Shown: piece by piece, positions 400 to 62,878 of the stretch
Layout: every line of letters begins with the position of its first letter
Numbering within the stretch: the stretch's first letter is position 1
From: the human T2T-CHM13v2.0 reference genome, Homo sapiens
Length of the DNA: 64,000 nucleotides
Reading direction: 5' to 3'
NCBI GenBank assembly: GCA_009914755.4
Contig: CP068257.2
Location: forward strand, 30,688,001-30,752,000
Translations under genes and position numbers: made by a program
Notes under the pieces: model-generated
What the model was told of the DNA's origin: nothing
The model's input: the letters and a program-made list of their open reading frames with translations, nothing else
Database searches by the model: none

Positions 400-511
400 T
401 CAGAAATAATGAGTGTACACAGTGTATTTTCTGTAACATGGTAGAATTGGAGGGAAATTTAGCTCTTCTGAGGAAACCAAAAGCATGACTCCAAGGGATC
501 GGAGGAAAATA
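400..511 (-). CDS. Candidate terminal coding exon. It would read (S)IFLRSLGVMLLVSSEELNFPPILPCYRKYTVYTHYF* with the stop at 400-402, and the 3'UTR would run off the window.
   Basis: Minus-strand acceptor gaatgtttcag|T at 512-513. The only frame compatible with the phase-2 end of exon 975-1172 is open for 36 codons, then TGA. No poly-A signal is visible within 1-399. Confidence 0.3.
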
Positions 512-974
512 CTGAAACATTCCAGAGAATTCATGGACAATGAGTCTTCGCAGGCTAATGAAGGCAGAGGCAAGTTTGGGAACACCCTGTCTTATGTTAG
601 AGTCACAGAAAATATTTTCTTTCTAAGAAACATCACTTGATTCAAGTGTTTGAATCACAGTATCAAGGCAGATGGCTCGCCAGCTAAAAATGACCTCGTA
701 CGATGCACATTAGGTGTTAATGTTAACAAGTATGTTAAGTTCTCGGGGTCTTGACAAGAAGCTTTATAAAATTGAAGGGCAAAGAAAGAGCTAATAAAAT
801 AGATGTTCTGACACTACCTACACCTGACACTGGTGCTCTGCCCCAATCCACAGCAGATCACGGCCCAGCGTCCCCCTGGTACAGAGTCATGACTGAGACA
901 TGGTGTCCACAGGTGGCAGACCAACACAGCATCCAAGAGGCCAGAAGGGCCCCCCTGGCGGGGGCAGGACTCAC

Positions 975-1172
975 CTCAGGTGCTTCATGAGCACGATGAG
1001 AACATAAAGGAACTCATTGACCAGGTGCAGGGCAAGCCGCTTGGCAGGCTCCTGGGAGCTAGGCTGGCAAAGGCGCTGGCTCTCCCACTCCACTGCCTTG
1101 TCCCCCAGGTTGGTCACCCACAGTGTGTGTAGCAAGGAGATCACATTAGACAGCAGCGGAGTCTCCAGAAAC
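975..1172 (-). CDS. Coding exon of the large minus-strand HEAT-like gene: FLETPLLSNVISLLHTLWVTNLGDKAVEWESQRLCQPSSQEPAKRLALHLVNEFLYVLIVLMKHL
   Basis: Acceptor ttggttttag|G (AG 1173-1174) and donor GAG|gtgagt (GT 973-974). Only one frame is open. The exon starts with 1 nt and ends with 2 nt, which fits the upstream exon 2289-2398. Confidence 0.8.
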
Positions 1173-2288
1173 CTAAAACCAAGCACAACAGCCTTCAATC
1201 CGCCACATCCTGACCTTTCAGCAGGATCAGACTATCGCCCTCCATAATCCTATCTGCTCATCCCCCTAGATAAGCATAGTCTCCAAGTAAAAACAGGGTG
1301 CTTGCTATACAAACGCAGCTTCCACACAGGACAAGGTGCACCGTCCTAACAGAAGATTGCCCTAAGTCCCTCCAAAAATTCAGGAGCCGCTGGGGCACAC
1401 TAATAAAAACTGTCCTGTTCATGACAACAACTCAATTTCTAAAACAAGACACTATAAGCCAGGAACATTAGCTAATTGTGCCTTTTATAAACCTGAAACA
1501 GTCTTGAAGTTGATGTCCAAATACACATTCTAATTTTGGATATTAATTTCTTCCCCCCACCCACTTTTTTTGTTGTTTGCAGATGTACTTGGATATATTA
1601 GTTTCTTTTAGAGAAATTTCAGGAAATGCTTTTAAAAAAATGCACAAAAGGGCCTGCATTCTCCCAGGCTTATTATAGTAGTTAGTTCTTTGTAAGACAG
1701 AGCCCTCCCGCCAAGTGCTGTCTGCTGTGACAGGGTCTTCATCTTTTCAGACAGTCTCAAACAGCAGGAGAATCAGGAATCACAATAAATCATCAAGTTC
1801 AGACCCCTGGTGCTGCTCCTCTAATGCGGGCTCATCACTGAGGACAGAGACCCTGCACTGACAGCAGAGCCCTGTCACCCGTCAGACCGGCCTTCCTGCA
1901 AGAGGGCTGCAGCTGCTAAAGCCTTAGAGAACAGGACATTCACTTCAGAGCACAGAAGGCTGCTGGGACACCGGGGAGGAGTCTGACCTGTGCAGAACAG
2001 AGCCAGACAGGCTGGCGGAGACTCTGCCAGATGTGAACAGCAGCTGGTGTCTGCTGTCCCATGGCAGACAAGAGACACTCAAGGAAAGGCTGTGAATGGA
2101 GGAAAGGCACTTTGGCACTGCCAGGAACGGGACTGCCAGGCATATGGTAGCATTGGAGGACACTGCATTTCAGAGAGCATGGATTTTACTGGACATTTCC
2201 AACCAACAACAGAGCTGGCAGCAGACGTCATCGTTTCTGTTCCTTTCCTTCCCACCTGACGCGCACCTCGCATGCAAAAGGTACTTAC

Positions 2289-2398
2289 TTGCTTTCAAGG
2301 ATGTGTAAAATCCATGTTAAAAGGCTATAGTCTCGTATGATTTCATACGCAGATCTGGCAACCTGGGCAGCATTCTGTAGAATTTCCAGAATCCAATT
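2289..2398 (-). CDS. Coding exon: NWILEILQNAAQVARSAYEIIRDYSLLTWILHILES(K)
   Basis: Acceptor tgtttggggttttcag|AATTGG (AG 2399-2400) and donor GCAA|gtaagt (GT 2287-2288). 110 nt, phase 0 start and phase 2 end, linking exon 3559-3702 to exon 975-1172. This exon is absent from the ORF track because stop codons flank it. Confidence 0.75.
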
Positions 2399-3558: not shown

Positions 3559-3702
3559 CTGTGCTGCCTCGTCACACAGCGGGCTGTGGAAGAAGGACAG
3601 GATGATGTGGAAGATGCCACGCCGGGCACACAGTTCGTAGCACTGCTTGTCACGGATCCCCTGCCGCAGAAGGCCAAACACCCACTTCTGCTCTGTTTTT
3701 TG
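3559..3702 (-). CDS. Coding exon: QKTEQKWVFGLLRQGIRDKQCYELCARRGIFHIILSFFHSPLCDEAAQ
   Basis: Acceptor ttaaag|CAAAAAAC (AG 3703-3704) and donor CACAG|gtacat (GT 3557-3558). 144 nt, phase 0 to phase 0. It lies within minus ORF 3532-3717. Confidence 0.75.
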
Positions 3703-4235: not shown

Positions 4236-4342
4236 CTCAAAGTCGGAGCTGTAGAAGAACTGGTAGAAGCCTGGCACTTTGTCCATGTTCAAGTACTCAT
4301 GCGACAGCAGGAAGTTGCTGACCTTCAGGTACATGTGCTCCT
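4236..4342 (-). CDS. Coding exon: (E)EHMYLKVSNFLLSHEYLNMDKVPGFYQFFYSSDFE
   Basis: Acceptor ctgcctgtgttctcag|AG (AG 4343-4344) and donor TTTGAG|gtatgc (GT 4234-4235). 107 nt, single open frame, starts with 2 nt and ends in phase 0. Confidence 0.8.
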
Positions 4343-5423
4343 CTGAGAACACAGGCAGTCAGTCAGTCATGGCAGGCCCCAGCAGGACGCCCCCTGGTCT
4401 GGCAGCACTAAGAGGCAGGCATTCTGGGTATCAGACATAAATCCCCTCCCAGGAACTTTTGTGTCCTGACCCAGAGGACTGGCTCTTGAGAATGAGAACA
4501 GAATTCAACACGTCAGCTCCATACCACACATGGGCTTGCTCTCCTAGCTCTGAAACCACTGCTGGATGTTGAGTCCTTCAGGGACCTCGCACCCTCCGCC
4601 TCCCCAGCTACCATCCTACAGCACAGGCTTCAAACCAGCCGGTGGGAAGGGTGGGACTTGGTCACACATCCCACAGATCAGGGCTGACACCACACCCACC
4701 CGCTGCACCTGCCTCTAGCTTCTCACTGAAAGGAACCGTCACAGCGGGGGAGGCTCAGACACTACTGAGTGCCTCTGGAATGCAGCAACGCAGAGGGCAA
4801 CGGACACCCTAGCTCCTGCTACCTCCTATCCTTGGATCACCAATGAGTCTACCCCATGACCATGCTGCCCTGCACACGCTCCACCCCGACATGAGCACCG
4901 GTGTGGGACACAGCCACACCCAGGACCAAAACCATCATGGTCTCTGCCAATTATTTTCTTCCCCTTCCAAATCTCCAAGGCAAGTAAATCCATGGAATAA
5001 AATGAAATGGGAGCAGATGAAAATGAGATCTGAATTCTAATAGCAACTTGACTGTGAACTAACTGTGGGGCCTTGACAAGCTATCTACCCTTGGGAGCCT
5101 CAGTTAGTGAGTATGGGGGATACAGGTGGAAACAGCACCCTGTGGTCCCTGATGGTACCAACTTTCTATGATTTTTCTCTCAATAACCAAAAAAAGTCTT
5201 AGAATGAGCTAACTTCTAGTCACACTATCTTAGCAGTGGTACCCCCATTCCTGTAACAAAAAGGAGCCTTGTTCTAACAGCGTGGATTACACATGTGCAG
5301 TACTCACATACCAAAAGCTTTGTAGCTAAGGACCCGTGAGCCTAAGCATGAATCAATGATGAATAATGGCGGTGATGGTGACGGCAGCTATCACTGATGA
5401 GTTTTTACTGTGCCAGGCACTTA

Positions 5424-5736: not shown

Positions 5737-6596
5737 TGTGTGATCCTCATCACCCTCACAGCAATGCTAGAGGCAGTGAGTCCGATCATCACCCCATCTT
5801 AGAGGAGGAAACGGGCATGGGGAAGTCCAGGACCGTCTGGCTGTGTCCACGCTTTCAGCCCCTGGGTTCCAATCCCTATGATGTGATTGGCCCACATTTT
5901 AACTTCAGTTTTATTTGCTCTCACCACAGCTTCCTATAACTACAAGCGAATATGAATATATACTCTTTCCCTCCATTATAAATACTGTTCTGCACTTTGC
6001 TTTGCCATCTACTTTTTTCTGGATTTCACCCCCCAGGGGTCCATGACGAGCTTCCTCATAGCCATCACCTATTTACTGTCCAGAGCTGATGGGGACTTCG
6101 GTGGCTCCTCATCTTCCACAATCATGAGCACGGAGTGGCCTTGAACACAGATGTGTGACCCACTATACCTGTGGGACTAATCCCTAGAAGTAGACTTGCT
6201 CAGCTTCAGCTTTTCAATTTCCCCTCAACCTAATTATGTCAGTGGTACCTGGTTTCAAAATCTGCAGGGCTGCTTTGGCAATGAAGAGAGCCAAGGTAAA
6301 AGTAAGTCTCATGTCCTGAGTTCGAATCCCATTCCGGACTACATCCAACAGGTAAAGTAGCTTGAAAACAGAACAGAAAAGGAAAATGTAAGATGAGCGT
6401 GTTCAGAGCTATGGTCAGTCCTCTCTGGTGCAGCCGAACCAGGGCTCAGCAGGGTGTGCCTGCTTCTCATATCCCAGGGGCCACTGAAGACGAAGCTCAC
6501 AGGAGCAGACACACTACTTGCCAGCATCTCTGGAACGCTTTTCGTTTTTATTTTAGGAGTCAGTCAGGTGCACAACAGCAGAGAGAAGTCTGGCAC

Positions 6597-6692
6597 CATG
6601 CCCTGAAAATCTAATCTGCTCTTGTTCCTCCAGCACCATGGGGTACAGGTTTCTAAGGTTCAGTGTGTCGTGGATAATAGCCACCTTAACCA
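6597..6692 (-). CDS. Coding exon: (V)VKVAIIHDTLNLRNLYPMVLEEQEQIRFSGH
   Basis: Acceptor tttctttggtctaaactcag|TG (AG 6693-6694) and donor CATG|gtgcca (GT 6595-6596). 96 nt, starts with 2 nt and ends with 1 nt. Phases fit both neighbours (6775-6829 and 4236-4342). Confidence 0.65.
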
Positions 6693-6774: not shown

Positions 6775-6829
6775 CTTTCTCAACCTCCACGGGGGGTTGT
6801 GGATCAAAGGCGACCTCCGGGATCACCTC
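6775..6829 (-). CDS. Short coding exon: EVIPEVAFDPQPPVEVEK
   Basis: Acceptor gtctgttcccttag|GAGGTG (AG 6830-6831) and donor GAGAAAG|gtttct (GT 6773-6774). 55 nt, phase 0 start and phase 1 end, which is exactly what exons 6987-7147 and 6597-6692 need. The donor is moderate. Confidence 0.6.
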
Positions 6830-6986: not shown

Positions 6987-7147
6987 CTGGGACTGCTCTT
7001 GGAACCGTGCGCCCTCCAAGTGCGAGTAGTAGGCCGCCAGGACATGGTAGGCTATGGCTCGCATCTGGGGGTCATAGCTGCTGAGGGCTGTGACAGTTAG
7101 GCCCAGAGCATTTGAATCCAAAAATTTTCGACAATCCACCACAAACT
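6987..7147 (-). CDS. Coding exon: (E)FVVDCRKFLDSNALGLTVTALSSYDPQMRAIAYHVLAAYYSHLEGARFQEQSQ
   Basis: Acceptor tatttcatttcctgcag|AG (AG 7148-7149) and donor CCCAG|gtaagtagg (GT 6985-6986). 161 nt, single open frame. Confidence 0.85.
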
Positions 7148-8640: not shown

Positions 8641-9134
8641 ATCAGTGATTAGACACTAGACCAAAAAGGATTAGCGAACTTAAGACAGCAATAGAAACTA
8701 TCCAAGCTGAAAACACAGAGAGGAAAAATATGAACAGAACATCAGTGTCCTGTGGGTATGTGTAATAGGGGGTCCCTGAAAAAAATCCGAAGAAATAATG
8801 GCCAAAACTTTTTGAAATCTGACCAAAAAAAACTATAAACCTAGACAGCCAAGAAACTCAAAACATAAAACATTAAGAATATCATGCAAGCATCATCACA
8901 AATAAAGCATATATATTTATATATAAAAGAAAATCACACGAAAGCACATTGTGATCAAATTGTTTGACACCAGTGATTTAAAAAAAATCTTAAGAGCAGC
9001 CACATGACATACAGAAGAATGAAGATAAGAATGGCAGATTTCTTGTCAGAAATAACTCAATTCAGAAACCAGAGGAGCAACTTCTTTAAAGTACTGTAAG
9101 AAAAAAAACTGTCAACCTTGAATTTTATACCCCA

Positions 9135-9266
9135 TCAAAATCTTTCAAAAGTTAAGACTTTTTTCAGACACAAAAAAGCTAAAACAATTGGTCACCAGTA
9201 TCAAAATCTTTCAAAAGTTAAGACTTTTTTCAGACACAAAAAAGCTAAAACAATTGGTCACCAGTA
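9135..9266. repeat. Perfect tandem duplication, 2 x 66 bp, inside the L1 ORF1 remnant
   Basis: tcaaaatctttcaaaagttaagacttttttcagacacaaaaaagctaaaacaattggtcaccagta occurs at 9135-9200 and again, identical, at 9201-9266. Confidence 0.9.
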
Positions 9267-15121: not shown

Positions 15122-15224
15122 CTGGCCTGGTCAGCTCACTGAAGAGCTGAAGGAGAAAGCAGGGGTCATAGAGGCCATCAAGATCCACCCTGCTTTTGTC
15201 TTTGAATATCAGCTCCTGTGTGTC
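15122..15224 (-). CDS. Coding exon: DTQELIFKDKSRVDLDGLYDPCFLLQLFSELTRP
   Basis: Acceptor ttttggctctttcag|GACACA (AG 15225-15226) and donor GGCCAG|gtaactgc (GT 15120-15121). 103 nt, phase 0 start and phase 1 end, matching exon 6987-7147 across an 8-kb intron full of L1/LTR/Alu. Confidence 0.8.
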
Positions 15225-15967: not shown

Positions 15968-16139
15968 CTCGGGGGGCAGCAGCCTCCGGTTCTGGGGGAA
16001 GTGCAGGATGGTCTGCATCATCCGGTCCCGGTCCAGCAGGCGAAGGATGTCCCCGACACTCGGCTGCTGCCACAGTGACCTGCCCAGGCTCCGGCACGTC
16101 TTGTGATGCTCCACGGCCGCTGGGCCCCACAGCAGCACC
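15968..16139 (-). CDS. Coding exon: (R)VLLWGPAAVEHHKTCRSLGRSLWQQPSVGDILRLLDRDRMMQTILHFPQNRRLLPPE
   Basis: Acceptor ttttcccttttctggctctag|G (AG 16140-16141). The donor CCCGAG|gttggg (GT 15966-15967) is weak but is the only phase-compatible one. 172 nt, within minus ORF 15860-16138. Confidence 0.7.
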
Positions 16140-18898: not shown

Positions 18899-18962
18899 CT
18901 GAAGTTGATGAGGCTGAGCTTGTTCTGCTCATACGCTCGAAGCAGAAGTAAAATCTTCTGAT
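18899..18962 (-). CDS. Short coding exon: (D)QKILLLLRAYEQNKLSLINF
   Basis: Acceptor ctgctttgacttgtag|AT (AG 18963-18964) and donor TTCAG|gtgagtg (GT 18897-18898). 64 nt, starts with 2 nt and ends with 2 nt, bridging exons 19209-19319 and 15968-16139 in frame. Confidence 0.7.
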
Positions 18963-19208: not shown

Positions 19209-19319
19209 CTAGGACGCTGAGAGTGGCGCCATAGGCCCCGAGAAGCACTGCAAAGTGGCTGCTCTCACAGACAGAGGGGCACATCTCCACCACCGTCAGC
19301 ATCAGGTCCACCAGCGCTT
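19209..19319 (-). CDS. Coding exon: (E)ALVDLMLTVVEMCPSVCESSHFAVLLGAYGATLSVL
   Basis: Acceptor gttgttttcttgcag|AA (AG 19320-19321) and donor CCTAG|gtgaggg (GT 19207-19208). 111 nt. Confidence 0.8.
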
Positions 19320-20511: not shown

Positions 20512-20705
20512 CTTTTACTTGGCTGTCCGGGCTCTCCTCTCCGTCAGACGTCAGTAGAGTCGGCAGAAACAGCGAGTGCTGCATGAGCATCACGTAGACC
20601 ACCGGGAGCTGGATGAGCTTCGTGCGCACGGAGCTTTCTGGGCTGTACAGGAGCTGTACGGCGGTGAGGAGCATCTTTAAAAATGTGTGGTCCTGGTACC
20701 GAAAT
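20512..20705 (-). CDS. Coding exon: (K)[64 protein letters not shown]
   Basis: Acceptor ctctcgccgcctag|A (AG 20706-20707) and donor GTAAAAG|gtgacc (GT 20510-20511). 194 nt, within minus ORF 20438-20674. A second acceptor, cag|GACCAC at 20693-20694, is phase-incompatible with the upstream exon. Confidence 0.8.
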
Positions 20706-23270: not shown

Positions 23271-23329
23271 TTGAGTCCCTTCTTCACGAATTTCTGCCAG
23301 TCACCAGGATCAACTTCATTAAGTGCATG
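23271..23329 (-). CDS. Short coding exon: HALNEVDPGDWQKFVKKGL
   Basis: Strong acceptor tgtttttcttacttattttattcatag|CATGCAC (AG 23330-23331) and donor CTCAA|gtaagt (GT 23269-23270). 59 nt, single open frame, phase 0 start and phase 2 end. Confidence 0.7.
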
Positions 23330-26401: not shown

Positions 26402-26588
26402 CAACAACGCATTTAATCTAAGCAGCATTTCCTTCTCCTGATTCTGAGTATTATCATCATCTTGCTGTCCACCACTGAAAGACACGATCAGCCACTTCAC
26501 ACAGGACTCCAAAAGGGTCCTTCTCCAGGCACACAGCTCTTCTGCTGACCCTTCCAGAGCTGCTGAAATGGAGTCGGCCACGATCCAC
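26402..26588 (-). CDS. Coding exon: (R)WIVADSISAALEGSAEELCAWRRTLLESCVKWLIVSFSGGQQDDDNTQNQEKEMLLRLNALL
   Basis: Acceptor tctcatctcctgctgcag|G (AG 26589-26590) and donor GTTGTTG|gtaagt (GT 26400-26401). 187 nt, single open frame (minus ORF 26384-26581). Confidence 0.85.
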
Positions 26589-27205: not shown

Positions 27206-27407
27206 CTCTTGTGACTGCTTGGGGTGTGAAGCAAGCTGGGCAGGCGGTCCATGAGTACACTGAGATCCTTGGCTCGTGCAAACGGGACCAGCTGTGCCAG
27301 GATCTCCTGGTACAGCCCAGATGCTGGGGGACTGTCAGTGCTAAGAAGCCTGCTCTGTAGCTGCCTCCACAGGGTCTTCCTCAAGACAGGAATGACAGCA
27401 GAAGACA
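27206..27407 (-). CDS. Coding exon: (V)SSAVIPVLRKTLWRQLQSRLLSTDSPPASGLYQEILAQLVPFARAKDLSVLMDRLPSLLHTPSSHK
   Basis: Acceptor tctctgccctag|TG (AG 27408-27409; an alternative cttgag|G lies at 27380-27381). Donor CACAAGAG|gtatga (GT 27204-27205). 202 nt. The phase matches the end of the 856-bp exon. Confidence 0.8.
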
Positions 27408-28787: not shown

Positions 28788-29643
28788 CTCCTGCTGGGCG
28801 TGTGAAGTGGCTCCGTGTCCTGCACTGGAGGTACACATGGATGAGGGGAAGGAAGTCGTCCAGGTCCCCCTGGAGGCCGAGCCCTGGGCCAGCCTGCAGG
28901 CACCACTGCTCGAACCACAGCAGGTGGGTGCAGCTCTCCTGGAGGAGCAGGGCAGCGATGCTGAGGGCCGCCTGTGTGCGCCGGGCCAGGCAGTAGTCAA
29001 GCAGATCAGCCCCGACTGCGGGGGCCAGCACAGGGTCTCTCTGCAGAGTGTGGAGGAGCACTGTGTCCAGCTCGTCCACTGCTAGCGTGGGCAGCAGAGC
29101 CCCCAGGCCTCTCACATACTCGGAGGACCACAGGAGCTCACCACTCTGCAGCTGATCCTGGGGGCTGCAGGTCAGCAGCTGCACCAGGGTCTTTCCAAGA
29201 GCATTCAGGTGTCTTTCTTTCCCGGGGGATTTCGTGGGTTGCTGGGTCACCAGGTGTGTCTCAGGCAGGCTCAGCAAGGCCAGGGTGACCTCACGGAGCT
29301 GGGCACCCTCCATGTATGGATGCAGCTCCTGCAGGGCCTCCAGCTGCGGCGGGGTCTTTGGTGGTGATGTGGCCGGGCCCGCCCTCCTGTTCTGAAGTTC
29401 CTTCAGCACACTCTGGGTGATGGCCTCTGAGTACCTGGCCAGAAGGCCCAGCTGCCCAATGTTCTGGAGGATCGGGGCACTTGCTGCCAGCAGCTGAAGG
29501 ACCCCTGCACTAAAGTGGGTGGCCAGGAGCTTCACGAGGACAGGGCTGAGCGTGTGCGGCGGGAGGGCCTGCTGCTCCAGGGCCAGGAACCAGCCCTCCA
29601 GGGTGGGGTGCCTGAGGATGGCCACAAGCACCTCCTCCAGCGT
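28788..29643 (-). CDS. Very long (856 bp) internal coding exon encoding about 285 aa: TLEEVLVAILRHPTLEGWFLALEQQALPPHTLSPVLVKLLATHFSAGVLQLLAASAPILQNIGQLGLLARYSEAITQSVLKELQNRRAGPATSPPKTPPQLEALQELHPYMEGAQLREVTLALLSLPETHLVTQQPTKSPGKERHLNALGKTLVQLLTCSPQDQLQSGELLWSSEYVRGLGALLPTLAVDELDTVLLHTLQRDPVLAPAVGADLLDYCLARRTQAALSIAALLLQESCTHLLWFEQWCLQAGPGLGLQGDLDDFLPLIHVYLQCRTRSHFTRPAG
   Basis: Minus ORF 28750-29631 (293 aa). Acceptor cctttcag|ACGCTG (AG 29644-29645) and donor GCAGGAG|gtaaggg (GT 28786-28787). Leucine-rich helical-repeat composition. Phase 0 start and phase 1 end, consistent with both neighbouring exons. Confidence 0.9.
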
Positions 29644-31135: not shown

Positions 31136-31315
31136 CTGATCATTGGCCAACTCCAGCGAGGCCACGGACTCCATGTCCAGGAAGAGGTCGGCTTCGGCCC
31201 GGGCGGCCTCGCATCTCTGCTGGTTCTGGGCATCCAGCTGCTCACAGTGGACAACCAGGCGCCTGAGGAGATCCAGGAAGAGCTGCAGGAGGGGCGGGCC
31301 CACACTTCTGCCCAG
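31136..31315 (-). CDS. Coding exon: LGRSVGPPLLQLFLDLLRRLVVHCEQLDAQNQQRCEAARAEADLFLDMESVASLELANDQ
   Basis: Acceptor gtcctcacag|CTGGGC (AG 31316-31317) and donor GATCAG|gtaccgcc (GT 31134-31135). 180 nt, phase 0 to phase 0 (minus ORF 31112-31333). Confidence 0.85.
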
Positions 31316-32535: not shown

Positions 32536-32754
32536 CTGGCCGAAGTTCTCCACAGTGCTCCGCAGGTAGAGCAACACCTGCTTGGCCGCGAGCAGGACCT
32601 GCTGCATGGACAGGTGTGGCATGGTGGCCTGCAGCTGCACCTGGATGTGCTCGTCCCGAAGCGCTTGGCTCTCGTAGGCTGCCTGCAGCAGGGCTGTGAA
32701 GGACGAGGCCAAGGGAAGGGCAGGGGGCGAGGGGCTGCCCTGTGCCTGCAGCAG
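32536..32754 (-). CDS. Coding exon: LLQAQGSPSPPALPLASSFTALLQAAYESQALRDEHIQVQLQATMPHLSMQQVLLAAKQVLLYLRSTVENFGQ
   Basis: Acceptor ctgtctccctcag|CTGCTG (AG 32755-32756) and donor GGCCAG|gtcagc (GT 32534-32535). 219 nt, phase 0 to phase 0. Three overlapping minus ORFs in the track are alternate frames of this GC-rich exon. Confidence 0.85.
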
Positions 32755-34541: not shown

Positions 34542-34738
34542 CCAGGCCTCTCGGGCTTGCTCCGGGATCCAGAGGCTGTAGTATCTGTTAAACCGTGAGA
34601 GCTGCTGGCAGCAAGGCACCAGGCATGGAGGCTCAAGCTTATCATATGCCTGGAGCAGGAGACACAGAGCCAGGGGGTCCCTCTGGGTGTGGAGGAGGTC
34701 AGTCAGCACTGCCGTCAGATATGTCACAACGTTTTCCG
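34542..34738 (-). CDS. Coding exon: (A)ENVVTYLTAVLTDLLHTQRDPLALCLLLQAYDKLEPPCLVPCCQQLSRFNRYYSLWIPEQAREAW
   Basis: Acceptor tctcgttcctttgcag|CG (AG 34739-34740) and donor GCCTGG|gtgagctgc (GT 34540-34541). 197 nt, within minus ORF 34431-34820. Confidence 0.85.
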
Positions 34739-35764: not shown

Positions 35765-35935
35765 CTGCTTCATTGCCTGTCCCAAGGAGCAACTTATTCC
35801 TGGCTTCCAGGGCCGCAGGGACTACCGCACTGAATGGGAACGTGAGCAGGATCATGTCTTCACTCAACGTGAACCCTATTTCCTCATCCAAGCCTTCACT
35901 GCCCTCCACCAGGACATCCACCATGTCGAGAACAT
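35765..35935 (-). CDS. Coding exon: (D)VLDMVDVLVEGSEGLDEEIGFTLSEDMILLTFPFSAVVPAALEARNKLLLGTGNEA. The acidic segment suggests a flexible linker.
   Basis: Donor GAAGCAG|gtacctatg (GT 35763-35764). The acceptor chosen is ttctcctctttctgtctcag|AT (AG 35936-35937) because it is phase-compatible with the upstream exon 36691-36829. A second strong acceptor, gtatttgcag|T at 35989-35990, would add ETLQWLSHQLDSPLSVS but breaks phase. Minus ORF 35751-36071. Confidence 0.75.
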
Positions 35936-36690: not shown

Positions 36691-36829
36691 CGTCAATGTG
36701 GGAGATGGGAATGCTCATGTCATCGGCTTCTTGCTTCGTCATAGTGGCCTGCAGCATGCTTGCTTCTTGGACAAAGTCAGATGCTTTGTCTGTGTATGAA
36801 TAGGGATTCGCCACCAATGTCAATAAAAT
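36691..36829 (-). CDS. Coding exon: ILLTLVANPYSYTDKASDFVQEASMLQATMTKQEADDMSIPISHID
   Basis: Acceptor ctttaatgcccag|ATTTTA (AG 36830-36831) and donor TGACG|gtatgttcc (GT 36689-36690). 139 nt, single open frame, phase 0 start and phase 1 end. Confidence 0.75.
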
Positions 36830-37280: not shown

Positions 37281-37851
<571 letters not shown>

Positions 37852-38238: not shown

Positions 38239-39575
38239 ACAATATGATCCCTTCTCTCAAGGCTACTTATCGTTTATCCTCATTTCCTAAATAAAAAGAA
38301 GGGAAAAAATTTGGCTGCTACTTAGGAGCCAAAGACCTCTGGATTTTCACAAAGACCCAGGTAAATGTGTAAAACTTGACCCCTCACAGCTACTCAACCC
38401 TTAGCCTGTATGAAATTCTCCAAGGTCACGAGCCAGTCACATCATATCACTTCAAATGCAGACCTCAAGACTCACTATTCCAACAGAAGAGAAACTGGTA
38501 TGAGGCAGGACTTGAATGTGCAGAAGTGACGAAATGATTTCCCTAAATGGTCTGAAAGCAGAAACTCAGAGTCTAAGAGGCCTCACGGCACAGAGCCCTG
38601 CAACAGCATGCACCAAAGGAAAGCCTGACTGTGCCAATTTCACCTATTTGCAGTCAGTGATCACGAAATCTGGCTGGGGTCAGGTTCACAACTGCACTAC
38701 CTGGAAGGAAATGGCAACCTATGGAGGTCAAGACTTAGACTGCCACATTCTTTAAGCAGCTCAAGAGAGAAGGCTGTAAGTGTAGCAAGGTTATCAGCAT
38801 TTCAAATAAAAGTGAAAGGTCAAACCTCTGTACCCTAAACATAGTGCATCCCCCAAGCTGTTTGTTGCAGAGCAGAAATGAGGACTAGATGTCCTACTGC
38901 TATCATAAGACCTGACATAGCTCTGGAAACATGAGTATCAAGGACAAAACAAGATAAGGAAATAAATTCCTATTCTCTTCCACTGGCTTTGATGACCCAT
39001 GTGCTGTGGGTGATGGATTCTGGCAAAAAGGCTGAAAGCCCTGGATAACGCCGGAGCCTGAGAAGGAGGAAAGAGGCACTGCCTAATAAACACCAAGAAG
39101 CCAAAATTTAGTATTGAGCCTACAACAAGCTAGAAATGACCTACCTAAAAAAAAAAAAAAAAACATTTTTCCAATGCACCAGGCTGCCTCCCAGGAATGT
39201 AGCTAAGTGTAAGACACAATAAATTAAACTGCCATAAAACCTTCTATTTTAAAACTAAAAACAATTCCAATACCTCCTGAATTCAATAACTGTTAACTAA
39301 ACACTTACCATAAGGAAGATCTATACAAAATGCTTTTCAGAGTTAGAAACTGGTAGAAAATGCTCACCTTCATGATCAGAAGTTTGGTCAATGACTTCAG
39401 TTGTAAATGGCTACTGGTCACAAACATTTTCATTAGTAAGTAAAATACTGATCGTTCACCTCCAATAATTTCTGCATCTGGGCCTTCCTAGAGTTTAAAC
39501 AATATTACGTATTTTTAGTATATATAATTACATATATAATTTTAATATATAGTTATATATTAGAAACATACCATG

Positions 39576-41626: not shown

Positions 41627-41739
41627 CTGTGCCTTTAACCACAGAAACTTGCTGGCCGGCAGCTCCAGGGCCACCTTCAGCATGTGGTGCTGCAGAATGG
41701 GAGGCACCTCCTCTCGAAGGCCCTGCTCAGAGATGACAC
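41627..41739 (-). CDS. Coding exon: (G)VISEQGLREEVPPILQHHMLKVALELPASKFLWLKAQ
   Basis: Acceptor gcctctttttcacccatag|GT (AG 41740-41741) and donor GCACAG|gtaggaagc (GT 41625-41626). 113 nt, at the end of minus ORF 41594-42142. Confidence 0.85.
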
Positions 41740-42837: not shown

Positions 42838-42954
42838 CTTTCAGGAGCTTGCTGAAGTCAAAGTTGTACTGCATGACCACGTGGGGGACCACCTTCTGGT
42901 AGAGGCATATGACCTGGAGCAAAACAGCTTTCAAAAGAATGGTTTCTGCATCAT
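42838..42954 (-). CDS. Coding exon: (D)DAETILLKAVLLQVICLYQKVVPHVVMQYNFDFSKLLK
   Basis: The acceptor ...tttctttcttttttttgtgcag|AT (AG 42955-42956) is directly preceded by the (GAAA)n microsatellite, which serves as the polypyrimidine tract on the transcribed strand. Donor CTGAAAG|gtgggt (GT 42836-42837). 117 nt. Confidence 0.85.
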
Positions 42955-43747: not shown

Positions 43748-43877
43748 CGCACTGGTGAGCATCGCAGGCAGCCGGGGGCCCATCGCTCCTTTTCTGCCCT
43801 TTCTTGTCATCCTGTTTGGTCTCTTGCTTTTTAAGTGACTGCCAGACCCACACGACAGTGTTCAGGTCTGGCAAAAT
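43748..43877 (-). CDS. Coding exon: ILPDLNTVVWVWQSLKKQETKQDDKKGQKRSDGPPAACDAHQC. The lysine-rich patch could be a nuclear or nucleolar localisation motif.
   Basis: Acceptor tgcttctttttcccatttag|ATTTTG (AG 43878-43879) and donor GTGCG|gtaaggtc (GT 43746-43747). 130 nt (minus ORF 43680-43874). Confidence 0.85.
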
Positions 43878-48473: not shown

Positions 48474-48611
48474 GTTTAATGCTTGGGTGAACATGCTCTT
48501 ATTGCACACCAGGGGCACGGTGGTCACCATCACCATTGCCAGGAGCCGAGGCAAGGGTATAAACTCTCTGGTCTGAAATGCCCGGGAAATCTCCGGCTGA
48601 GCCTCATAGAT
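48474..48611 (-). CDS. Coding exon: IYEAQPEISRAFQTREFIPLPRLLAMVMVTTVPLVCNKSMFTQALN
   Basis: Not in the ORF track. Found by scanning: acceptor ctcttttttgcttttcctag|ATCTAT (AG 48612-48613) and donor TTAAAC|gtaagggc (GT 48472-48473). 138 nt, unique open frame, phase 0 to phase 0, fitting both neighbours. Confidence 0.75.
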
Positions 48612-49049
48612 CTAGGAAAAGCAAAAAAGAGATTTAGGTGGTGCTAGAAGTAAGTTTCAAACCTGAGACTAGCTGTAGGCACCCAAAGGTGAAGCCATTC
48701 AATCAAATAATTATAGCGGTAAAGGTCCGAGACTCCCCACAAGGCAGAGTGGAAGATTAACCCTCAAATCTACTTGTCAAAGACAAATCAGGTCAGGAGA
48801 CTGGCTGTTAACAGAGAAAGGACCTTCAGAGCAGAACTTGACCTGTGGTCTGCAGAGTCTCTTAAAACCTCTGATGGCAAATAAATCACTGCCAGAACTA
48901 CGAATGGTACTACTTACCAGTTCCTGCTGCACTTGACAGGCACCTGACAAATGATGTCAGGAAGGGATGTCAAGAAGCCATCTTCTCAAAGCTTCCTCAC
49001 AACGCTTTGGGATAGGCACACTTTACATTAAAACAAAAATATATTCACA

Positions 49050-50251: not shown

Positions 50252-50447
50252 CTTGTTTAGTAGTTTGATATTATTTAACCAAGTAGACTTCGCTCGTGGG
50301 ATAAAGGAAAACGTTACTTCCTTGAAGTATTTGTTCAGTAAGTCCGGGCACACTTTGAGGATGTTTACCACAAGGTCAGCCACCAGATCATCATCAGCTG
50401 CAGTTTTCAAACCCAGCAAGAAGTGCAAGAGTGTCAGGTTTCCGCCT
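50252..50447 (-). CDS. Coding exon: (R)GGNLTLLHFLLGLKTAADDDLVADLVVNILKVCPDLLNKYFKEVTFSFIPRAKSTWLNNIKLLNK
   Basis: Acceptor tgtctttctctaacag|A (AG 50448-50449) and donor AACAAG|gtaaaaaac (GT 50250-50251). 196 nt (minus ORF 50150-50464). Confidence 0.85.
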
Positions 50448-54357: not shown

Positions 54358-54482
54358 CTGCCAAAGGTACCCAAAGATGCATCGTAAAAATTAATTCCAT
54401 GCTTGAGTGAACAGCAAAGATCCATCAGGAAGTTATGAACAAGCTCCCGCACCATGGTTTTCCCTGCTTCTTCGGCAGAAAC
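54358..54482 (-). CDS. Coding exon: VSAEEAGKTMVRELVHNFLMDLCCSLKHGINFYDASLGTFG
   Basis: Not in the ORF track. Acceptor aatcttcatag|GTTTCT (AG 54483-54484) and strong donor GGCAG|gtaaagt (GT 54356-54357). 125 nt, unique open frame, phase 0 start and phase 2 end, which matches exon 50252-50447. Confidence 0.75.
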
Positions 54483-55497: not shown

Positions 55498-55623
55498 CTT
55501 GACATTTTCTGGGTTCACATCGGTAATCCCATTCCAGTTGTACAGCGATGCTATGTGGTTCAATAACTGCCCCGTAAAGAAACGCACCTTCTGGGTTTTT
55601 GTGATATTTTTATTGTGAACTAC
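55498..55623 (-). CDS. Coding exon: VVHNKNITKTQKVRFFTGQLLNHIASLYNWNGITDVNPENVK
   Basis: Not in the ORF track. Acceptor ttttattattgtttcag|GTAGTT (AG 55624-55625) and donor GTCAAG|gtgcag (GT 55496-55497). 126 nt, phase 0 to phase 0. Confidence 0.75.
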
Positions 55624-57248: not shown

Positions 57249-57312
57249 CTTTGTTTTCAGTGTGGATAATAAAATATTGATGGTAGAGATCCTATCTTCC
57301 TTTATCCCTGAG
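57249..57312 (-). CDS. Candidate short coding exon: (H?)SGIKEDRISTINILLSTLKTK
   Basis: Strong acceptor tttattccttgcatttttag|CTCAGGG (AG 57313-57314) and donor ACAAAG|gtatgtgc (GT 57247-57248). 64 nt, unique open frame, ends in phase 0 as exon 55498-55623 requires. Its upstream partner is unresolved. Confidence 0.45.
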
Positions 57313-57464
57313 CTAAAAATGCAAGGAATAAATTCTGAAAGTAAAAGTTTCAAAGCATTAAATTCAAAAATATTTTGAAAATGAGAATAGACGAGAGAAT
57401 ATTACTGTTTAGGTGGTACAGCAAACAATGCCATTTACTTTTTCAAGTTTTTTTTTTTTAACTA

Positions 57465-58825: not shown

Positions 58826-60295
58826 TAATCGCTGCATTCCATCTTATGACCAGTCCCCAATTTGCTCAGCCAATCCCTTACTGGTGGATAGTTAGAAGAC
58901 CCATTTCCAGCTAATATAAATATTATTCCCTAACAAAACCTCTACTCACATCTTTAATTATTTCACTGGGATAAATGACTAGACATGGAATTGCAGGATC
59001 AAGTATCTTAAAAGTTTTTTTATCTTTTTTCTTTATCTATTGTGCAACCCACTTCAGTGCCAGCAGCCTACGGGCACAGAGGCCAGGCAATGGTTCAGGG
59101 CTACAGTTTGCTCTGGCATGGGGTACTATGAGAGGTCCAGGGGGACGGGCCCATCATAAATCCAAACCCATGCATAAGCACCTTAAAAGTTTTGATGTGT
59201 ACAGCCAAACTTCCCAGCAGAAACATTAAACTGTAGTATGTTCCAGCCCCCTTCAACAGTGTAAATGGTACCAACTGTCACTGAATAAAAGGCCAGACAG
59301 CTGAAATGGCCCACGGGAATTTGAAGAAACTACTGGCCCTGGCAGCAGCAAGATATCCTGAACCTAGTGCCTGGTAACAAGTAGGAAAAAAAAAAATCTG
59401 TCCGCTGCATTATGCAGAGACCACATCTCCACTCTCATGCTGCTCCACCACAGCAGCAATAGAGCGCCCCACACAGACCAGGCTGACCACATACAGGGTG
59501 ACCGCCACCTGCACTCTCCTCCTAAATCGTCCCGGCAGTCACGTTCCAGGGGCAGTCCAGATCTCCCATCCTGGGAGGGAGAAGAAGGGCTGGAGACCCA
59601 AACACCCTGAGTACAGCACCCTGCTACTCCTCCTCAATAACTCCCAGAGTTCCGGCCAGGACATGGGACTGCTCCTCACCTCCAGACAGGCCAGGATTCC
59701 AGGGAATCTTACCGAGCAACTGCCATGTGCTGAGCTAAGTGCTGCCATTTATCATCTTAGTGAATCTCTTGATAAAATGCAAGGGGCCCTGGCAGATTAA
59801 ATGATGCCAAGCCTCACTCTAGGGACACAGCCACCAAAAGGTGGTCAAGTTGGAATTCTCTGAAGCCCTGTTACTGATGTTCTCGTAACACAGGTCTAAG
59901 CCACCAAAGAAACTAACTTTGTTTTTTAAAACGACATCTCCCAAGGAAATCCAGGTAGCCAAGGCTATGAGTCTGAGTAGGTTCCATAGCCATAAAGCCT
60001 CCTTTGTTTGCCCGACTCTGCCTCTCTGAAGTCTGCATTTATCCTCTGTGACGGCATTGTTCAGCATTCCAGACGGCATAACAGGAACAACTCTGTTCAC
60101 TCTTGACCAGTGATATCAAAATGGTACTGACCAAGGCTTTGCACCCGCTCACCCACCTCCCTGCCCCACATCCTTCAATCTGGTGTACACAGCAACTGCA
60201 AAGGCTGCAGACTTTTTTTGAACTTGGAAGAAACGGTTTGCAGTAGGTTTTTCAAAACAAATGGGCTTTCCTAACGGACAAGGGAGTACACCTAC

Positions 60296-60392
60296 CTTTC
60301 ACTTCCAACACCTGCACTATAGTGCTGTCATCACCCGCAATTAAAAAGGAGAGAGCAAACTGAACGTAGGCCTGCCGAACGTCGTACACTCC
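60296..60392 (-). CDS. Coding exon: GVYDVRQAYVQFALSFLIAGDDSTIVQVLEVK
   Basis: Not in the ORF track. Acceptor gtaggtctcctttgtcctctag|GGAGTG (AG 60393-60394) and donor GTGAAAG|gtaggtgtac (GT 60294-60295). 97 nt, unique open frame, phase 0 start and phase 1 end. Confidence 0.7.
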
Positions 60393-61417
60393 CTAGAGGA
60401 CAAAGGAGACCTACATGTCACATGCATATTCCACATACAGCCAAAGGAATCAGCAACACAGTGGCCAAGCACACCCCTCCCGTCTCAACATCACCAGCCC
60501 CCCAGCCTTGTCCCCAGTCACCAGGGGATGCAAGTCTGAAACCAATGCTCATTCTCCATGGAAAGTAAAAAATTTTTTCCGTTCTCTTTCCCCGGTAATC
60601 TTCTCTACTTTCCTTCTCTTTCAAGCCCTATTCTCAATACAAAAGTATGGGTAAAAAATAGTAGTGTTCCCTTCCCTGACTATAACACATACATTTTCGT
60701 TTCTTGGCCACTTTGGTGTAGAGCAAGACTCTCAGCCTGCCTAGATCCATCTCCTCTCGCTTGCTGATGAAAATAATCTATGTTTTTGAAAATCCAGAGA
60801 TGATGAAATGGCTGGTACTGCTTTTGGTGAGACACCAATGTGGTGATGTCTGGTTTTTATGAGATATTATAAATAACTTATTAGCTCATACCACAAACCA
60901 AAGCACAGATGCTGTCACGTTACTAACCCTGTTAGGCCTTCCCAGGGTTGTAGCCAGCACTGTCCACATGCATCAGCCACCAACCAGGGCACTGGGCACG
61001 TTTGGGGAGGGCCCCAACACCGTGACAGCAGCCAGTGCCTCTAGGGAAGCCGCTGATCAGCTTCCCCTCCCAGTATCATTAAGACAAAGCTGTGTCACAT
61101 CACTCCTCGTTTTGTATCTAAGGAACTCAAGGCATGTGGTCATGTCAGTCTCTCATCAGCTGTTCCAGAACTAGCAGGTGTGCCTGGATCCTCCATTGCT
61201 TACACCCAGCACTATTCTCTACTTCACAGTTACTCCAAAGATACCTTCATTCACTGCCAAGAAATAAGTTAATATCACAACAAGTCACTGCCCCAAAATG
61301 CCTGGGAAAATTAAGGAGTAATCTCTGCCTTCCAGATAGTTCTGTTCCACTTAGTAGTAGCAGGAGAGGTGGTGGCAGTAGTAGTGATGATGATGAGGAG
61401 GAGGAGGAGAACAATGT

Positions 61418-61558
61418 TTACAGAGCACTTACTATGTGCCAGGCACTGTATCAAATGCTGCACATCCGTGATCTCATTTACTCCTCATAACAGCCTGAGG
61501 GAGAGATGCCCACACCACACCCATTTTACAGATGAGAAAACTGAGGGTTCAAAAATTC
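61418..61558 (-). mobile_element. MIR SINE fragment, truncated by the adjacent Alu insertion
   Basis: tttacagagcacttactatgtgccaggcactgtatcaaatgctgcacatccgtgatctcatttactcctcataacagcctgagggagagatgcccacaccacacccattttacagatgagaaaactgagggttcaaaaattcag. Confidence 0.7.
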
Positions 61559-61844
61559 AGCCGGACACGGTGGCTCATGCCTATAATCCCAGCACATTGG
61601 GAGGCCAAGGAGGGTGGATCACTTGAGGTTAGGAGTTCGAAACCAACCCGGCCAACATGGTGAAACCCTGTCTCTACTAAAAATACAAAAATTAGCTGGG
61701 TATGGTGGTAGGCGCCTATAATCCCAGCTACTCGGGAGGCTGAGACTTAAGCCCGGGAGGCAGAGGTTGCAGTGAGCAGAGATCACGCCACTGCACTCCA
61801 ACCTGGGCGACAGAGCGAGACTCCATCTCAAAAAAAAAAAAAAA
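61559..61844 (+). mobile_element. Alu SINE inserted into or abutting a MIR
   Basis: ccggacacggtggctcatgcctataatcccagcacattgggaggccaaggagggtggatcacttgaggttaggagttcgaaaccaacccggccaacatggtgaaaccctgtctc ... poly-A. Confidence 0.9.
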
Positions 61845-62830
61845 TTTCACTCGAGGTCACACAGCTAATTAAGTACCAGAACTGAGATAAGAAGTAATTG
61901 TACAAACATACGACTTATGTTCAACTACAGAGAAGTTCTTCCTTCTTCACAAGATTCTGTGGCATTTTCCATTTTCATTTCACTTTTTCTCAGGGTGCAA
62001 GGACCATACTTGGCATCAGTTAGGTCTCTGTGCAAGTCTTTAATTAATTCCATCTTATTTTGTTGGGTCTATGTTTCTTCTGGAGAAAAGGAAGGCTATC
62101 CAACCCATGCTCCCTAATATGTGGATCAAGGCCTTGCACACTCATTACATTTATTGAGTTTATCCCCATCCATGTCACACAGCATCTCAGCAAGACCTTA
62201 TTACACCAATGTGAGTTTCTTCCAAAACTGAGACCTTCAAACTATCCTCTCTGTTCTGAGGACCTATCTGTGTGTCTCATCACAATAAGGAGTTTGCATC
62301 CAATGATCACTGGTGCTGAGAATGTGCAGCACTTCCATAGTGTCAGCAACACTCCAGTGCCTTAACCCACCAATTCAGTTTTTATGAAACACTCATTCCA
62401 TTCAAGATGCCATCATCTCAGGCCAAGAGAGGGTGCAAAGTTTACCAAGATGTTGTCCCTGTCCTCAGGAAGCTTAAGCTGCTCCCAAGCCATCTCTATG
62501 CCTCATTGTTCAAATAAACATACCATCTAATTCAAGCAGTTAATTTTCTTGATCTACACACACCTTGTGTTCCAGATGAATGCTGGTAAAATGCTAAAAC
62601 TTGCCTGGCAAAATTAAATTAAGTTCTGTCTTTTCCCTGCTAGTGGAAAGTTCCTGTGCTTTTATTTTGTGTCCACTGAAGTAACAGTACTGGGAGTCAG
62701 GGCCCTGGAATGCTGGTCCAGGTTTTCTGCCATTCTACATCTTTCTATCCTGCTGGTACACAGCAGAACTAGACCTCCTGTGGGTCCCTCCAGCAATGAA
62801 TTTATAAATGAAAAGGGATTTAGTTATCAC

Positions 62831-62878
62831 CTCCTGGCTTCCATCTTTTATATCCCAGACAACTCCAAATTTCACGTC
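62831..62878 (-). CDS. Candidate short coding exon: DVKFGVVWDIKDGSQE
   Basis: Acceptor ccagttcctccatcatgtcag|GACGTG (AG 62879-62880) and donor CCAGGAG|gtgataac (GT 62829-62830). 48 nt, phase 0 to phase 0 in the frame that fits exon 60296-60392. A second frame is also open, so this is weaker. Confidence 0.35.

What the first reader, a model, noticed from the sequence alone, without database searches (positions are those of the whole stretch)
400..62878. One large minus-strand gene, rebuilt by hand as a phase-consistent chain of about 33 exons; possibly URB1, unverified
The consecutive exons at 55498-55623, 54358-54482, 50252-50447, 48474-48611, 45012-45185, 43748-43877, 42838-42954, 41627-41739, 40594-40743, 37281-37397, 36691-36829, 35765-35935, 34542-34738, 32536-32754, 31136-31315, 28788-29643, 27206-27407, 26402-26588, 23271-23329, 20512-20705, 19209-19319, 18899-18962, 15968-16139, 15122-15224, 6987-7147, 6775-6829, 6597-6692, 4236-4342, 3559-3702, 2289-2398 and 975-1172 each have a single open frame and canonical GT-AG boundaries, and their codon phases match end to start with no gap. 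A chance set of ORFs would not do that, so this is strong internal evidence for a real spliced coding sequence. Several of these exons are not in the six-frame track, because it only lists ORFs of 60 aa or more. The translation is about 1,800 aa, leucine-rich and predicted helical (HEAT/ARM-like), with acidic linkers and one lysine-rich patch. The gene runs off both ends of the window. The size, the exon count in 64 kb, the single 856-bp internal exon and the helical-repeat composition are what I would expect of the ribosome-biogenesis gene URB1 (chr21q22, minus strand, about 39 exons, 2,271 aa). I cannot recall URB1 sequence well enough to confirm this.
Basis: partly seen in the sequence, partly recalled or inferred. 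Interest (0 to 1): 0.55.

Follow-up and report, generated by a model that had tools for sequence, protein, structure and literature searches.

The report
Known ribosome-biogenesis gene URB1, exon model corrected

Summary
The minus strand carries the middle of URB1 (NPA1 homologue).

28 of the 31 listed exons are exact. Three have no support: 40594-40743 (no AG/GT and an in-frame stop as written; off by one base), 6775-6829 and 6597-6692.
- **Replacements:** the real exons are 39368-39487 and 6249-6360.
- **Extra exons:** two more lie upstream, at 57249-57334 and 60296-60392. Nothing supports exons at 400-974 or 60393-62878.
- **Corrected model:** 32 exons, 5225 nt, 1741 aa, all AG/GT, no stop.
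  - It is 96.3% identical to orangutan URB1 residues 190-1743 with one gap, and collinear end to end with frog URB1.
  - It matches Pfam Npa1 and the full NopRA1 profile.
  - A spliced RNA contig from a public run confirms 12 introns at about 100% nucleotide identity.
  - A published human URB1 siRNA matches exon 6249-6360 at 25 of 25 bases.
- **Intron content:** one intron holds a SNORA80-type H/ACA snoRNA, as at the human locus.

The gene is already known and interest is low.

The parts
60296..60392 (-).
   Evidence: AG/GT boundaries. tblastn hits from 24 orthologues. Junction to the next exon scored against Pongo URB1.
59038..59173 (-). H/ACA snoRNA of the SNORA42/SNORA80 family, inside the intron between exons 60296-60392 and 57249-57334
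   Evidence: Rfam RF00406: 159.3 bits against a gathering score of 70, E=5e-35, full model 1-136. An AGAGCA H box and an ACA three bases from the 3' end are visible in the alignment. SNORA80A is listed next to URB1 in the human 21q22 gene order (PMC12652779).
57249..57334 (-).
   Evidence: AG/GT boundaries. 23 orthologues. Junctions fit Pongo URB1 exactly.
55498..55623 (-).
   Evidence: AG/GT. 24 orthologues. Junctions checked.
54358..54482 (-). URB1 coding exon (125 nt); reader exact
   Evidence: AG/GT. 26 orthologues. Junctions checked.
50252..50447 (-). URB1 coding exon (196 nt); reader exact
   Evidence: AG/GT. 25 orthologues. Junctions checked.
48474..48611 (-). URB1 coding exon (138 nt); reader exact
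   Evidence: AG/GT. 25 orthologues. The donor at 48474 is used in RNA contig L001.
45012..45185 (-). URB1 coding exon (174 nt); reader exact
   Evidence: AG/GT. 28 orthologues. L001 block 45185-45012 at 100% identity.
43748..43877 (-). URB1 coding exon (130 nt) holding the lysine-rich patch; reader exact
   Evidence: AG/GT. 22 orthologues. L001 block.
42838..42954 (-). URB1 coding exon (117 nt); reader exact
   Evidence: AG/GT. 27 orthologues. L001 block.
41627..41739 (-). URB1 coding exon (113 nt); reader exact
   Evidence: AG/GT. 27 orthologues. L001 block.
39368..39487 (-).
   Evidence: AG/GT. 97.6% identical to Pongo residues 624-664. 30 orthologues by tblastn. L001 block 39489-39368 at 100% identity.
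37281..37397 (-). URB1 coding exon (117 nt); reader exact
   Evidence: AG/GT. 34 orthologues. L001 block.
36691..36829 (-). URB1 coding exon (139 nt); reader exact
   Evidence: AG/GT. 36 orthologues. L001 block.
35765..35935 (-). URB1 coding exon (171 nt); reader exact
   Evidence: AG/GT. 36 orthologues. L001 block.
34542..34738 (-). URB1 coding exon (197 nt); reader exact
   Evidence: AG/GT. 35 orthologues. L001 block.
32536..32754 (-). URB1 coding exon (219 nt); reader exact
   Evidence: AG/GT. 29 orthologues. L001 block.
31136..31315 (-). URB1 coding exon (180 nt); reader exact
   Evidence: AG/GT. 17 orthologues. L001 block.
28788..29643 (-). URB1 large internal coding exon (856 nt); reader exact
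   Evidence: AG/GT. 31 orthologues, and 96% identity to Pongo over 286 aa. The acceptor is used in L001, which then reads on into the intron.
27206..27407 (-). URB1 coding exon (202 nt); reader exact
   Evidence: AG/GT. 14 orthologues. Gap-free against Pongo.
26402..26588 (-). URB1 coding exon (187 nt); reader exact
   Evidence: AG/GT. 24 orthologues.
23271..23329 (-). URB1 coding exon (59 nt); reader exact
   Evidence: AG/GT. 4 orthologues by tblastn, as expected for a short exon. Gap-free in the full alignment to Pongo and frog.
20512..20705 (-). URB1 coding exon (194 nt); reader exact
   Evidence: AG/GT. 21 orthologues.
19209..19319 (-). URB1 coding exon (111 nt); reader exact
   Evidence: AG/GT. 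21 orthologues.
18899..18962 (-). URB1 coding exon (64 nt); reader exact
   Evidence: AG/GT. 16 orthologues.
15968..16139 (-). URB1 coding exon (172 nt); reader exact
   Evidence: AG/GT. 21 orthologues.
15122..15224 (-). URB1 coding exon (103 nt); reader exact
   Evidence: AG/GT. 19 orthologues.
6987..7147 (-). URB1 coding exon (161 nt), start of the NopRA1 domain; reader exact
   Evidence: AG/GT. 21 orthologues. NopRA1 domain match.
6249..6360 (-).
   Evidence: AG/GT. 20 orthologues. It turns the NopRA1 match into one full-length stretch: 203 bits against 153 bits in two stretches. A published human URB1 DsiRNA matches 6336-6360 at 25 of 25 bases (PMC13201660 Table S2).
4236..4342 (-). URB1 coding exon (107 nt); reader exact
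   Evidence: AG/GT. 16 orthologues. Junctions gap-free in 6 orthologues.
3559..3702 (-). URB1 coding exon (144 nt); reader exact
   Evidence: AG/GT. 15 orthologues. Junctions gap-free.
2289..2398 (-). URB1 coding exon (110 nt); reader exact
   Evidence: AG/GT. 10 orthologues. Junctions gap-free.
975..1172 (-). URB1 coding exon (198 nt); last exon inside the window; reader exact
   Evidence: AG/GT. 15 orthologues. Orthologues continue beyond it, and no further exon is found in 1-974.

Best explanation
The window is an internal 64-kb piece of the URB1 gene (nucleolar pre-ribosomal-associated protein 1, the homologue of yeast Npa1/Urb1) from a hominid genome, most likely human. It is transcribed from the minus strand.

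**What is shown here.** Thirty-two GT-AG exons inside the window encode 1741 residues, corresponding to residues 190 to about 1930 of the protein. These cover the second half of the Npa1 N-terminal domain, a strongly conserved central core, and the complete NopRA1 domain. One intron carries a SNORA80-type H/ACA snoRNA gene.

**What is inferred from published work.** None of this function was tested here.
- The protein is a very large alpha-solenoid scaffold.
- In yeast, the homologue Npa1 is the backbone of a complex with Npa2, Nop8, Rsa3 and the helicase Dbp6. [quoted passage not shown]
- In human cells, URB1 is needed for removal of the 3' external transcribed spacer of pre-rRNA (PMC13201660, citing Shan et al., Nature 2023).
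For: - **Exon model:** the corrected 32-exon model has AG/GT at every boundary, no stop, 5225 nt and 1741 aa.
- **Closest relative:** it is 96.3% identical to Pongo abelii URB1 residues 190-1743 with a single gap.
- **Distant orthologues:** it forms a single end-to-end alignment (1-1741) with frog URB1 at 56% identity, and long collinear alignments with bird, reptile and fish URB1. The C-terminal junctions are gap-free in 6 orthologues.
- **Domains:** Pfam NopRA1 scores 203 bits over profile positions 1-199 of 199. Pfam Npa1 scores 177.5 bits over profile positions 126-331 of 331.
- **Transcript evidence:** RNA-derived contig L001 (Logan, SRR23064443, 2933 nt) aligns in 13 blocks at 98-100% nucleotide identity. 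Its block edges fall on the model's exon boundaries from 48474 to 29643, including exon 39368-39487. Its protein is 99.9% identical to model residues 230-1100 with no gap, against 96.0% to Pongo.
- **Human reagent:** a human URB1 DsiRNA matches 6336-6360 exactly.
- **Intronic snoRNA:** a SNORA80-family snoRNA lies in an intron, matching the human gene order URB1, SNORA80A.
- **Strand asymmetry:** non-exonic DNA shows T>A (+0.105) and G>C (+0.061) on the minus strand in all eight 8-kb bins. By established knowledge this fits transcription of the whole window from that strand.
- **Genome type:** 21 Alu-like elements and a CpG observed/expected ratio of 0.25 indicate a primate genome.
- **Fold:** the AlphaFold model of an 86%-identical orthologue fragment is all-alpha, and its nearest solved folds are importin beta, CAND1 and CRM1.
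Against: - No human reference genome or full-length human URB1 protein was available in the tools. 'Human' rather than chimpanzee or gorilla is therefore an inference.
- The species of SRR23064443 was not given.
- Transcript evidence covers only 12 of the 31 introns. The rest rest on orthologue collinearity.
Its confidence is moderate (mean pLDDT 69.8), and the fold matches have low TM-scores (about 0.2).
- The function is taken from the literature and was not tested.
Confidence: 0.9

Rival explanations
1. The reader's own 31-exon chain, as written, is the true main transcript. It includes 40594-40743, 6775-6829 and 6597-6692, and lacks 39368-39487 and 6249-6360.
For: Thirty of the 31 exons have AG/GT boundaries, and the chain is phase-consistent. 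Shifted by one base, 40595-40744 is also AG/GT and open. The splice signals of the three exons fall within the range of the true exons.
Against: - As written, 40594-40743 has GA/TG boundaries and a stop.
- None of the 37 orthologues contains the peptides of these three exons, with the best E-value at 0.76 or worse. By contrast, 31 and 20 orthologues (blastp) contain the two replacement exons.
- RNA contig L001 joins 41627 directly to 39487, and 39368 to 37397.
- A human URB1 DsiRNA targets exon 6249-6360.
- Phase-compatible decoys are abundant, with 114 in one intron.
Confidence: 0.01
2. The window is URB1 of a non-human great ape (chimpanzee, bonobo or gorilla), not of human.
For: The tools held no human or African-ape reference. 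The 96% identity to orangutan fits any African hominid. A 25-nt siRNA match would probably also hold in close apes.
Against: - The RNA contig at about 100% nucleotide identity comes from a public sequencing run. By general knowledge, most such runs are human.
- The human siRNA matches exactly.
- Neither point is decisive.
Confidence: 0.08
3. The window is a duplicated, unprocessed URB1 pseudogene or paralogue rather than the functional gene.
For: None specific. It is considered only because the locus could not be placed on a chromosome.
Against: - All 32 exons are open and all 62 splice dinucleotides are intact.
- The protein is 96% identical to orangutan URB1 with one gap.
- Spliced RNA matches at about 100% identity.
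- The intronic snoRNA is intact and matches the full model.
Confidence: 0.01

Closest known systems
Human URB1 (NPA1P, KIAA0539, C21orf108), nucleolar pre-ribosomal-associated protein 1, 21q22.11
   Same: - Both Pfam domains are present, Npa1 and NopRA1.
- It is 96% identical to the orangutan orthologue.
- A human URB1 DsiRNA matches exactly.
- A SNORA80-family snoRNA lies in an intron, as in the human gene list.
- It has many short exons and one large 856-nt exon.
   Different: Nothing found. The window lacks the exons for about the first 189 residues, and for what birds, frog and fish show as a further C-terminal part (344 residues in P0003). These lie outside the window. Identity to the human reference itself could not be computed.
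Yeast Npa1/Urb1, backbone of the Npa1-Npa2-Nop8-Rsa3-Dbp6 complex
   Same: It belongs to the same Pfam families. It has the same alpha-solenoid scaffold architecture: the literature calls Npa1 an alpha-solenoid scaffold (PMC11879421 abstract), and the orthologue model here is all-alpha. Both act early in large-subunit biogenesis (PMC6136799; PMC13201660).
   Different: The relationship is detectable only at profile level. The reported human phenotype is a 3' ETS removal defect, whereas the yeast work stresses clustering of 25S rRNA root helices and recruitment of Dbp6. Whether the human partners are the same was not examined.
HEAT/ARM alpha-solenoids with solved structures (importin beta, CAND1, CRM1, RRP12, Pds5B)
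   Same: They share the general fold class. Foldseek gives E-values of 8e-6 to 7e-4 and probabilities of 0.96 to 1.00.
   Different: Sequence identity is 9-14% and TM-score about 0.2. No sequence-level relative exists in the PDB copy, either by single sequence or by profile. This is a resemblance in architecture, not family membership.
SNORA80A (ACA67), H/ACA snoRNA, Rfam RF00406
   Same: It matches the full-length covariance model at 159 bits against a gathering score of 70, has H and ACA boxes, and sits in an intron of URB1 on the same strand as the gene.
   Different: None seen. Its rRNA targets were not examined.

Membership tests
URB1/Npa1 family | Npa1 N-terminal domain (Pfam PF11707) | tested here: met
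   177.5 bits against a cutoff of 22.7, covering profile positions 126-331 of 331. The first 125 positions are encoded outside the window.
URB1/Npa1 family | NopRA1 domain (Pfam PF16201) in the C-terminal part | tested here: met
   203 bits against a cutoff of 29.6, in one stretch over profile positions 1-199 of 199, using the corrected model.
URB1/Npa1 family | Collinear full-length similarity to proteins named URB1 in other vertebrates | tested here: met
   96.3% identity to Pongo with 1 gap over 1555 aa. Single alignments covering 1-1741 with frog, and long alignments with birds, reptiles and fish.
URB1/Npa1 family | Alpha-solenoid (HEAT-like) architecture | tested here: met
   Tested on an 86%-identical orthologue fragment, not on the window protein. 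The model is all-alpha with mean pLDDT 69.8. The top solved folds are importin beta, CAND1 and CRM1. The precomputed Pfam family HEAT_URB1 (PF26140) is listed for orthologues.
URB1/Npa1 family | Nucleolar location and a role in pre-60S / 3' ETS processing | not testable with these tools
   From the literature only: PMC13201660 and PMC6136799.
Human URB1 locus | SNORA80A embedded in the gene | tested here: met
   An RF00406 hit lies at 59038-59173 on the minus strand, inside an intron. The human gene order lists URB1, SNORA80A, URB1-AS1.
Human URB1 locus | Identity to the human reference genome or RefSeq mRNA | not testable with these tools
   No human reference was available. Indirect evidence: an exact 25-nt match of a human DsiRNA, and an RNA contig at about 100% identity from a run of unstated species.
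H/ACA snoRNA, SNORA42/SNORA80 (RF00406) | Two hairpins separated by an H box, with an ACA box 3 nt from the 3' end, scoring above Rfam's gathering score | tested here: met
   159.3 bits against 70. Both hairpins align with standard pairs. AGAGCA and ACA-AUA-3' are present.

The most novel reading that the evidence does not exclude
The candidates are 40595-40744, which is frame-preserving at 150 nt, and the pair 6775-6829 + 6597-6692. My evidence shows they are absent from orthologues and from one RNA contig. It does not exclude rare use.
Probability: 0.03. Interest if true: 0.1.

Novelty: already known. Interest (0 to 1): 0.05.

Why it matters
Biologically this adds little, because it is a correct re-identification of a well-studied gene. 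Its value is methodological.

Reading exons by eye from raw sequence recovered 28 of 31 listed exons exactly, and named the right gene. Phase consistency with GT-AG boundaries still let three false exons through, because introns offer hundreds of phase-compatible decoys. Homology or transcript evidence is needed to settle short exons.

The corrected coordinates and the intronic snoRNA give a clean annotation of the window.

Tried and rejected
- **Solved structures:** sequence and profile searches of the PDB copy found no solved relative.
- **Structure prediction:** I used the 86%-identical orthologue P0035 instead.
- **Further exons at the window ends:**
  - tblastn of orthologue residues 1-200 against 60393-64000 gave only chance-level hits.
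  - tblastn of the next 120 orthologue residues against 1-980 gave only chance-level hits.
  - A profile HMM of the next 110 orthologue residues against 1-1000 found nothing.
- **Splice-signal scoring:** polypyrimidine content and donor consensus did not separate the three false exons from the true ones.
- **Junction script:** a first automatic junction-scoring script stopped on overlapping HSPs after six junctions. I replaced it by building the whole model and aligning it.
- **Literature:** a broad search for URB1 reagents returned mostly irrelevant papers.
- **Pseudogene or paralogue:** considered and rejected (see rival explanations).

Full report
**1. Checking the observation**

I extracted the 31 listed exons from the minus strand. 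Thirty have AG before and GT after at exactly the stated coordinates. The concatenation (5111 nt) is open in one frame except for a single stop.

The exception is 40594-40743. As written it is flanked by GA and TG, and it holds the stop.

The chain is therefore largely real as a sequence feature.
- The intron 37398-41626 alone contains 114 open AG..GT segments of 50-250 nt with the right entry phase and a length divisible by three.
- Across all introns there are about 358 open AG..GT segments per kb, adding the counts for the three phases.

**2. What it is**

The translation matches Pfam Npa1 and NopRA1. A search of the large protein collection returned 37 proteins. Nearly all that carry a name are called nucleolar pre-ribosomal-associated protein 1 or URB1, and the best is Pongo abelii URB1 isoform X4 at 96% identity.

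tblastn of all 37 proteins against the window gave 32 clusters of hits, all on the minus strand. Of these, 28 coincide with reader exons.

Three reader exons have no hit: 40594-40743, 6775-6829 and 6597-6692. Their peptides find nothing better than E=0.76 in any orthologue. Orthologues instead match 39368-39487 (120 nt) and 6249-6360 (112 nt), both with AG/GT boundaries. The replacements keep the phase (150 versus 120 nt; 55+96=151 versus 112 nt).

No exon is supported in 60393-64000 or in 1-974, even with lenient tblastn and a profile HMM. The finding's outer limits of 400 and 62878 are therefore not supported.

**3. The corrected model**

The model has 32 exons, 5225 nt and 1741 aa. Every boundary is AG/GT and there is no stop.
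- It aligns to Pongo URB1 residues 190-1743 at 96.3% identity with a single gap.
- It aligns end to end (1-1741) with URB1 of the frog Ascaphus at 56% identity.
- It aligns collinearly with bird, reptile and fish URB1.
- The last four junctions, beyond the reach of the Pongo isoform, are gap-free in six orthologues.
- The NopRA1 match becomes one stretch over the full profile at 203 bits.

**4. Transcript-level evidence**

The 90%-identity cluster of the Pongo protein also holds three unnamed proteins from Logan assemblies of public sequencing runs. They are 99.2-99.9% identical to my model, without gaps, and only 95-97% identical to Pongo.

The contig encoding the longest one is L001 (run SRR23064443, 2933 nt). 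It aligns to the window in 13 blocks at 98-100% nucleotide identity, with edges on the model's exon boundaries from 48474 to 29643. This confirms 12 introns directly. The contig begins and ends in intron sequence, so it comes from partly processed RNA.

Independently, the sense strand of a DsiRNA used to deplete human URB1 (PMC13201660, Table S2) matches 6336-6360 on the minus strand at 25 of 25 bases.

**5. Surroundings**

Rfam finds a full-length H/ACA snoRNA of the SNORA42/SNORA80 family at 59038-59173 on the minus strand. It scores 159 bits against a gathering score of 70, shows H and ACA boxes, and lies inside the intron between the first two exons of the window. A human 21q21-q22 deletion report lists the gene order MRAP, URB1, SNORA80A, URB1-AS1, EVA1C (PMC12652779).

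Other observations on the window:
- A second Rfam hit at 24288-24584 on the minus strand is a full-length 7SL-derived element. It has the S domain and an A-rich tail, so it is a retropseudogene rather than an Alu.
- The window holds 21 Alu-like elements.
- CpG is depleted, with an observed/expected ratio of 0.25.
- Non-exonic DNA has T>A (+0.105) and G>C (+0.061) on the minus strand in all eight 8-kb bins. By established knowledge, this is the transcription-associated asymmetry of mammalian genes. It fits a transcript that runs through the whole window.

No long ORF elsewhere suggests another gene.

**6. How it works**

What is shown here is the gene structure, the two family domains and the orthology.

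The architecture was tested on a stand-in. The AlphaFold model of P0035, a 909-residue mammalian fragment 86% identical to the window protein, is all-helical with a mean pLDDT of 69.8. Its nearest solved folds are importin beta, CAND1, CRM1, Pds5B and RRP12, at low TM-score. No solved structure is related by sequence.

The function comes from the literature:
- Yeast Npa1 is the backbone of a complex with Npa2, Nop8, Rsa3 and the helicase Dbp6. [quoted passage not shown]
- Npa1 and Npa2 are described as alpha-solenoid scaffolds (PMC11879421).
- Depletion of human URB1 causes accumulation of 3' ETS-extended pre-rRNA (PMC13201660, citing Shan et al., Nature 2023).

**7. Comparison and novelty**

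Every testable defining feature of URB1 is met, so this is the known gene. Species is inferred as human but not proven, and another African ape cannot be excluded with these tools.

Nothing here is new biology. The finding is a correct identification with an exon model that needed three corrections and two additions.

**8. Verdict**

| Question | Verdict |
|---|---|
| Observation | Partly confirmed (28 of 31 exons exact) |
| Interpretation | Supported (URB1, helical repeat, runs off both ends) |
| Novelty | Already known |
| Interest | 0.05 |

Noticed in passing
window 59038-59173 (-): A full-length H/ACA snoRNA of the SNORA42/SNORA80 family (159 bits, H box AGAGCA, ACA box) lies in the URB1 intron between exons 60296-60392 and 57249-57334. 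It is most likely SNORA80A.
   Followed up: yes
window 24288-24584 (-): A full-length 7SL (SRP RNA) derived element (Rfam Metazoa_SRP, 164 bits). It has the S domain, many CpG-to-TpG-type changes and an A-rich tail. It is a 7SL retropseudogene in an intron, not an Alu.
   Followed up: partly
window 1-64000, non-exonic DNA: There is a consistent strand asymmetry on the sense (minus) strand: T>A by +0.105 and G>C by +0.061, positive in all eight 8-kb bins. This is as expected for transcription-coupled mutation bias across a transcribed mammalian gene.
   Followed up: partly
window 4370-4408 (-): The C-terminal 13 residues of the predicted Pongo isoform X4 (VLPDQGASCWGLP) map just upstream of the acceptor of exon 4236-4342. 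This suggests an alternative upstream acceptor or intron retention that ends the reading frame early in that predicted isoform.
   Followed up: no
L001 (Logan SRR23064443), window 48612-48806 and 28721-28787: The RNA contig is spliced at 12 introns but starts about 195 nt inside the intron upstream of exon 48474-48611. It also reads 67 nt into the intron after the 856-nt exon, so it derives from partly processed pre-mRNA. It differs from the window by a few bases and by one amino acid.
   Followed up: partly
window 42972-43061: An (AAAG)n microsatellite of about 23 copies on the + strand. On the sense strand it reads (CTTT)n and lies 18 nt upstream of the acceptor of exon 42838-42954, lengthening its pyrimidine-rich upstream region.
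   Followed up: no
window 14209-14428 and 9134-9266: An A-rich tandem repeat (46/93-nt unit, 4.7/2.4 copies) and an exact 66-nt tandem duplication lie in the 7974-nt intron between exons 15122-15224 and 6987-7147.
   Followed up: no
window 17381-17720: A short CpG-island-like stretch (340 bp, GC at least 0.55, CpG observed/expected at least 0.65) lies inside an intron, in an otherwise CpG-poor window (overall observed/expected 0.25). A second such stretch, 20431-20740, overlaps exon 20512-20705.
   Followed up: no
model residues 470-680 (exons 37281-37397 to 34542-34738): This is the most conserved part of the protein across vertebrates, with dozens of invariant columns such as SIPISHIDDVLDMVD and FPFSAVVPAALEARN. 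It lies between the two Pfam domains, in a region where the scan of the local Pfam-A copy found no family.
   Followed up: no
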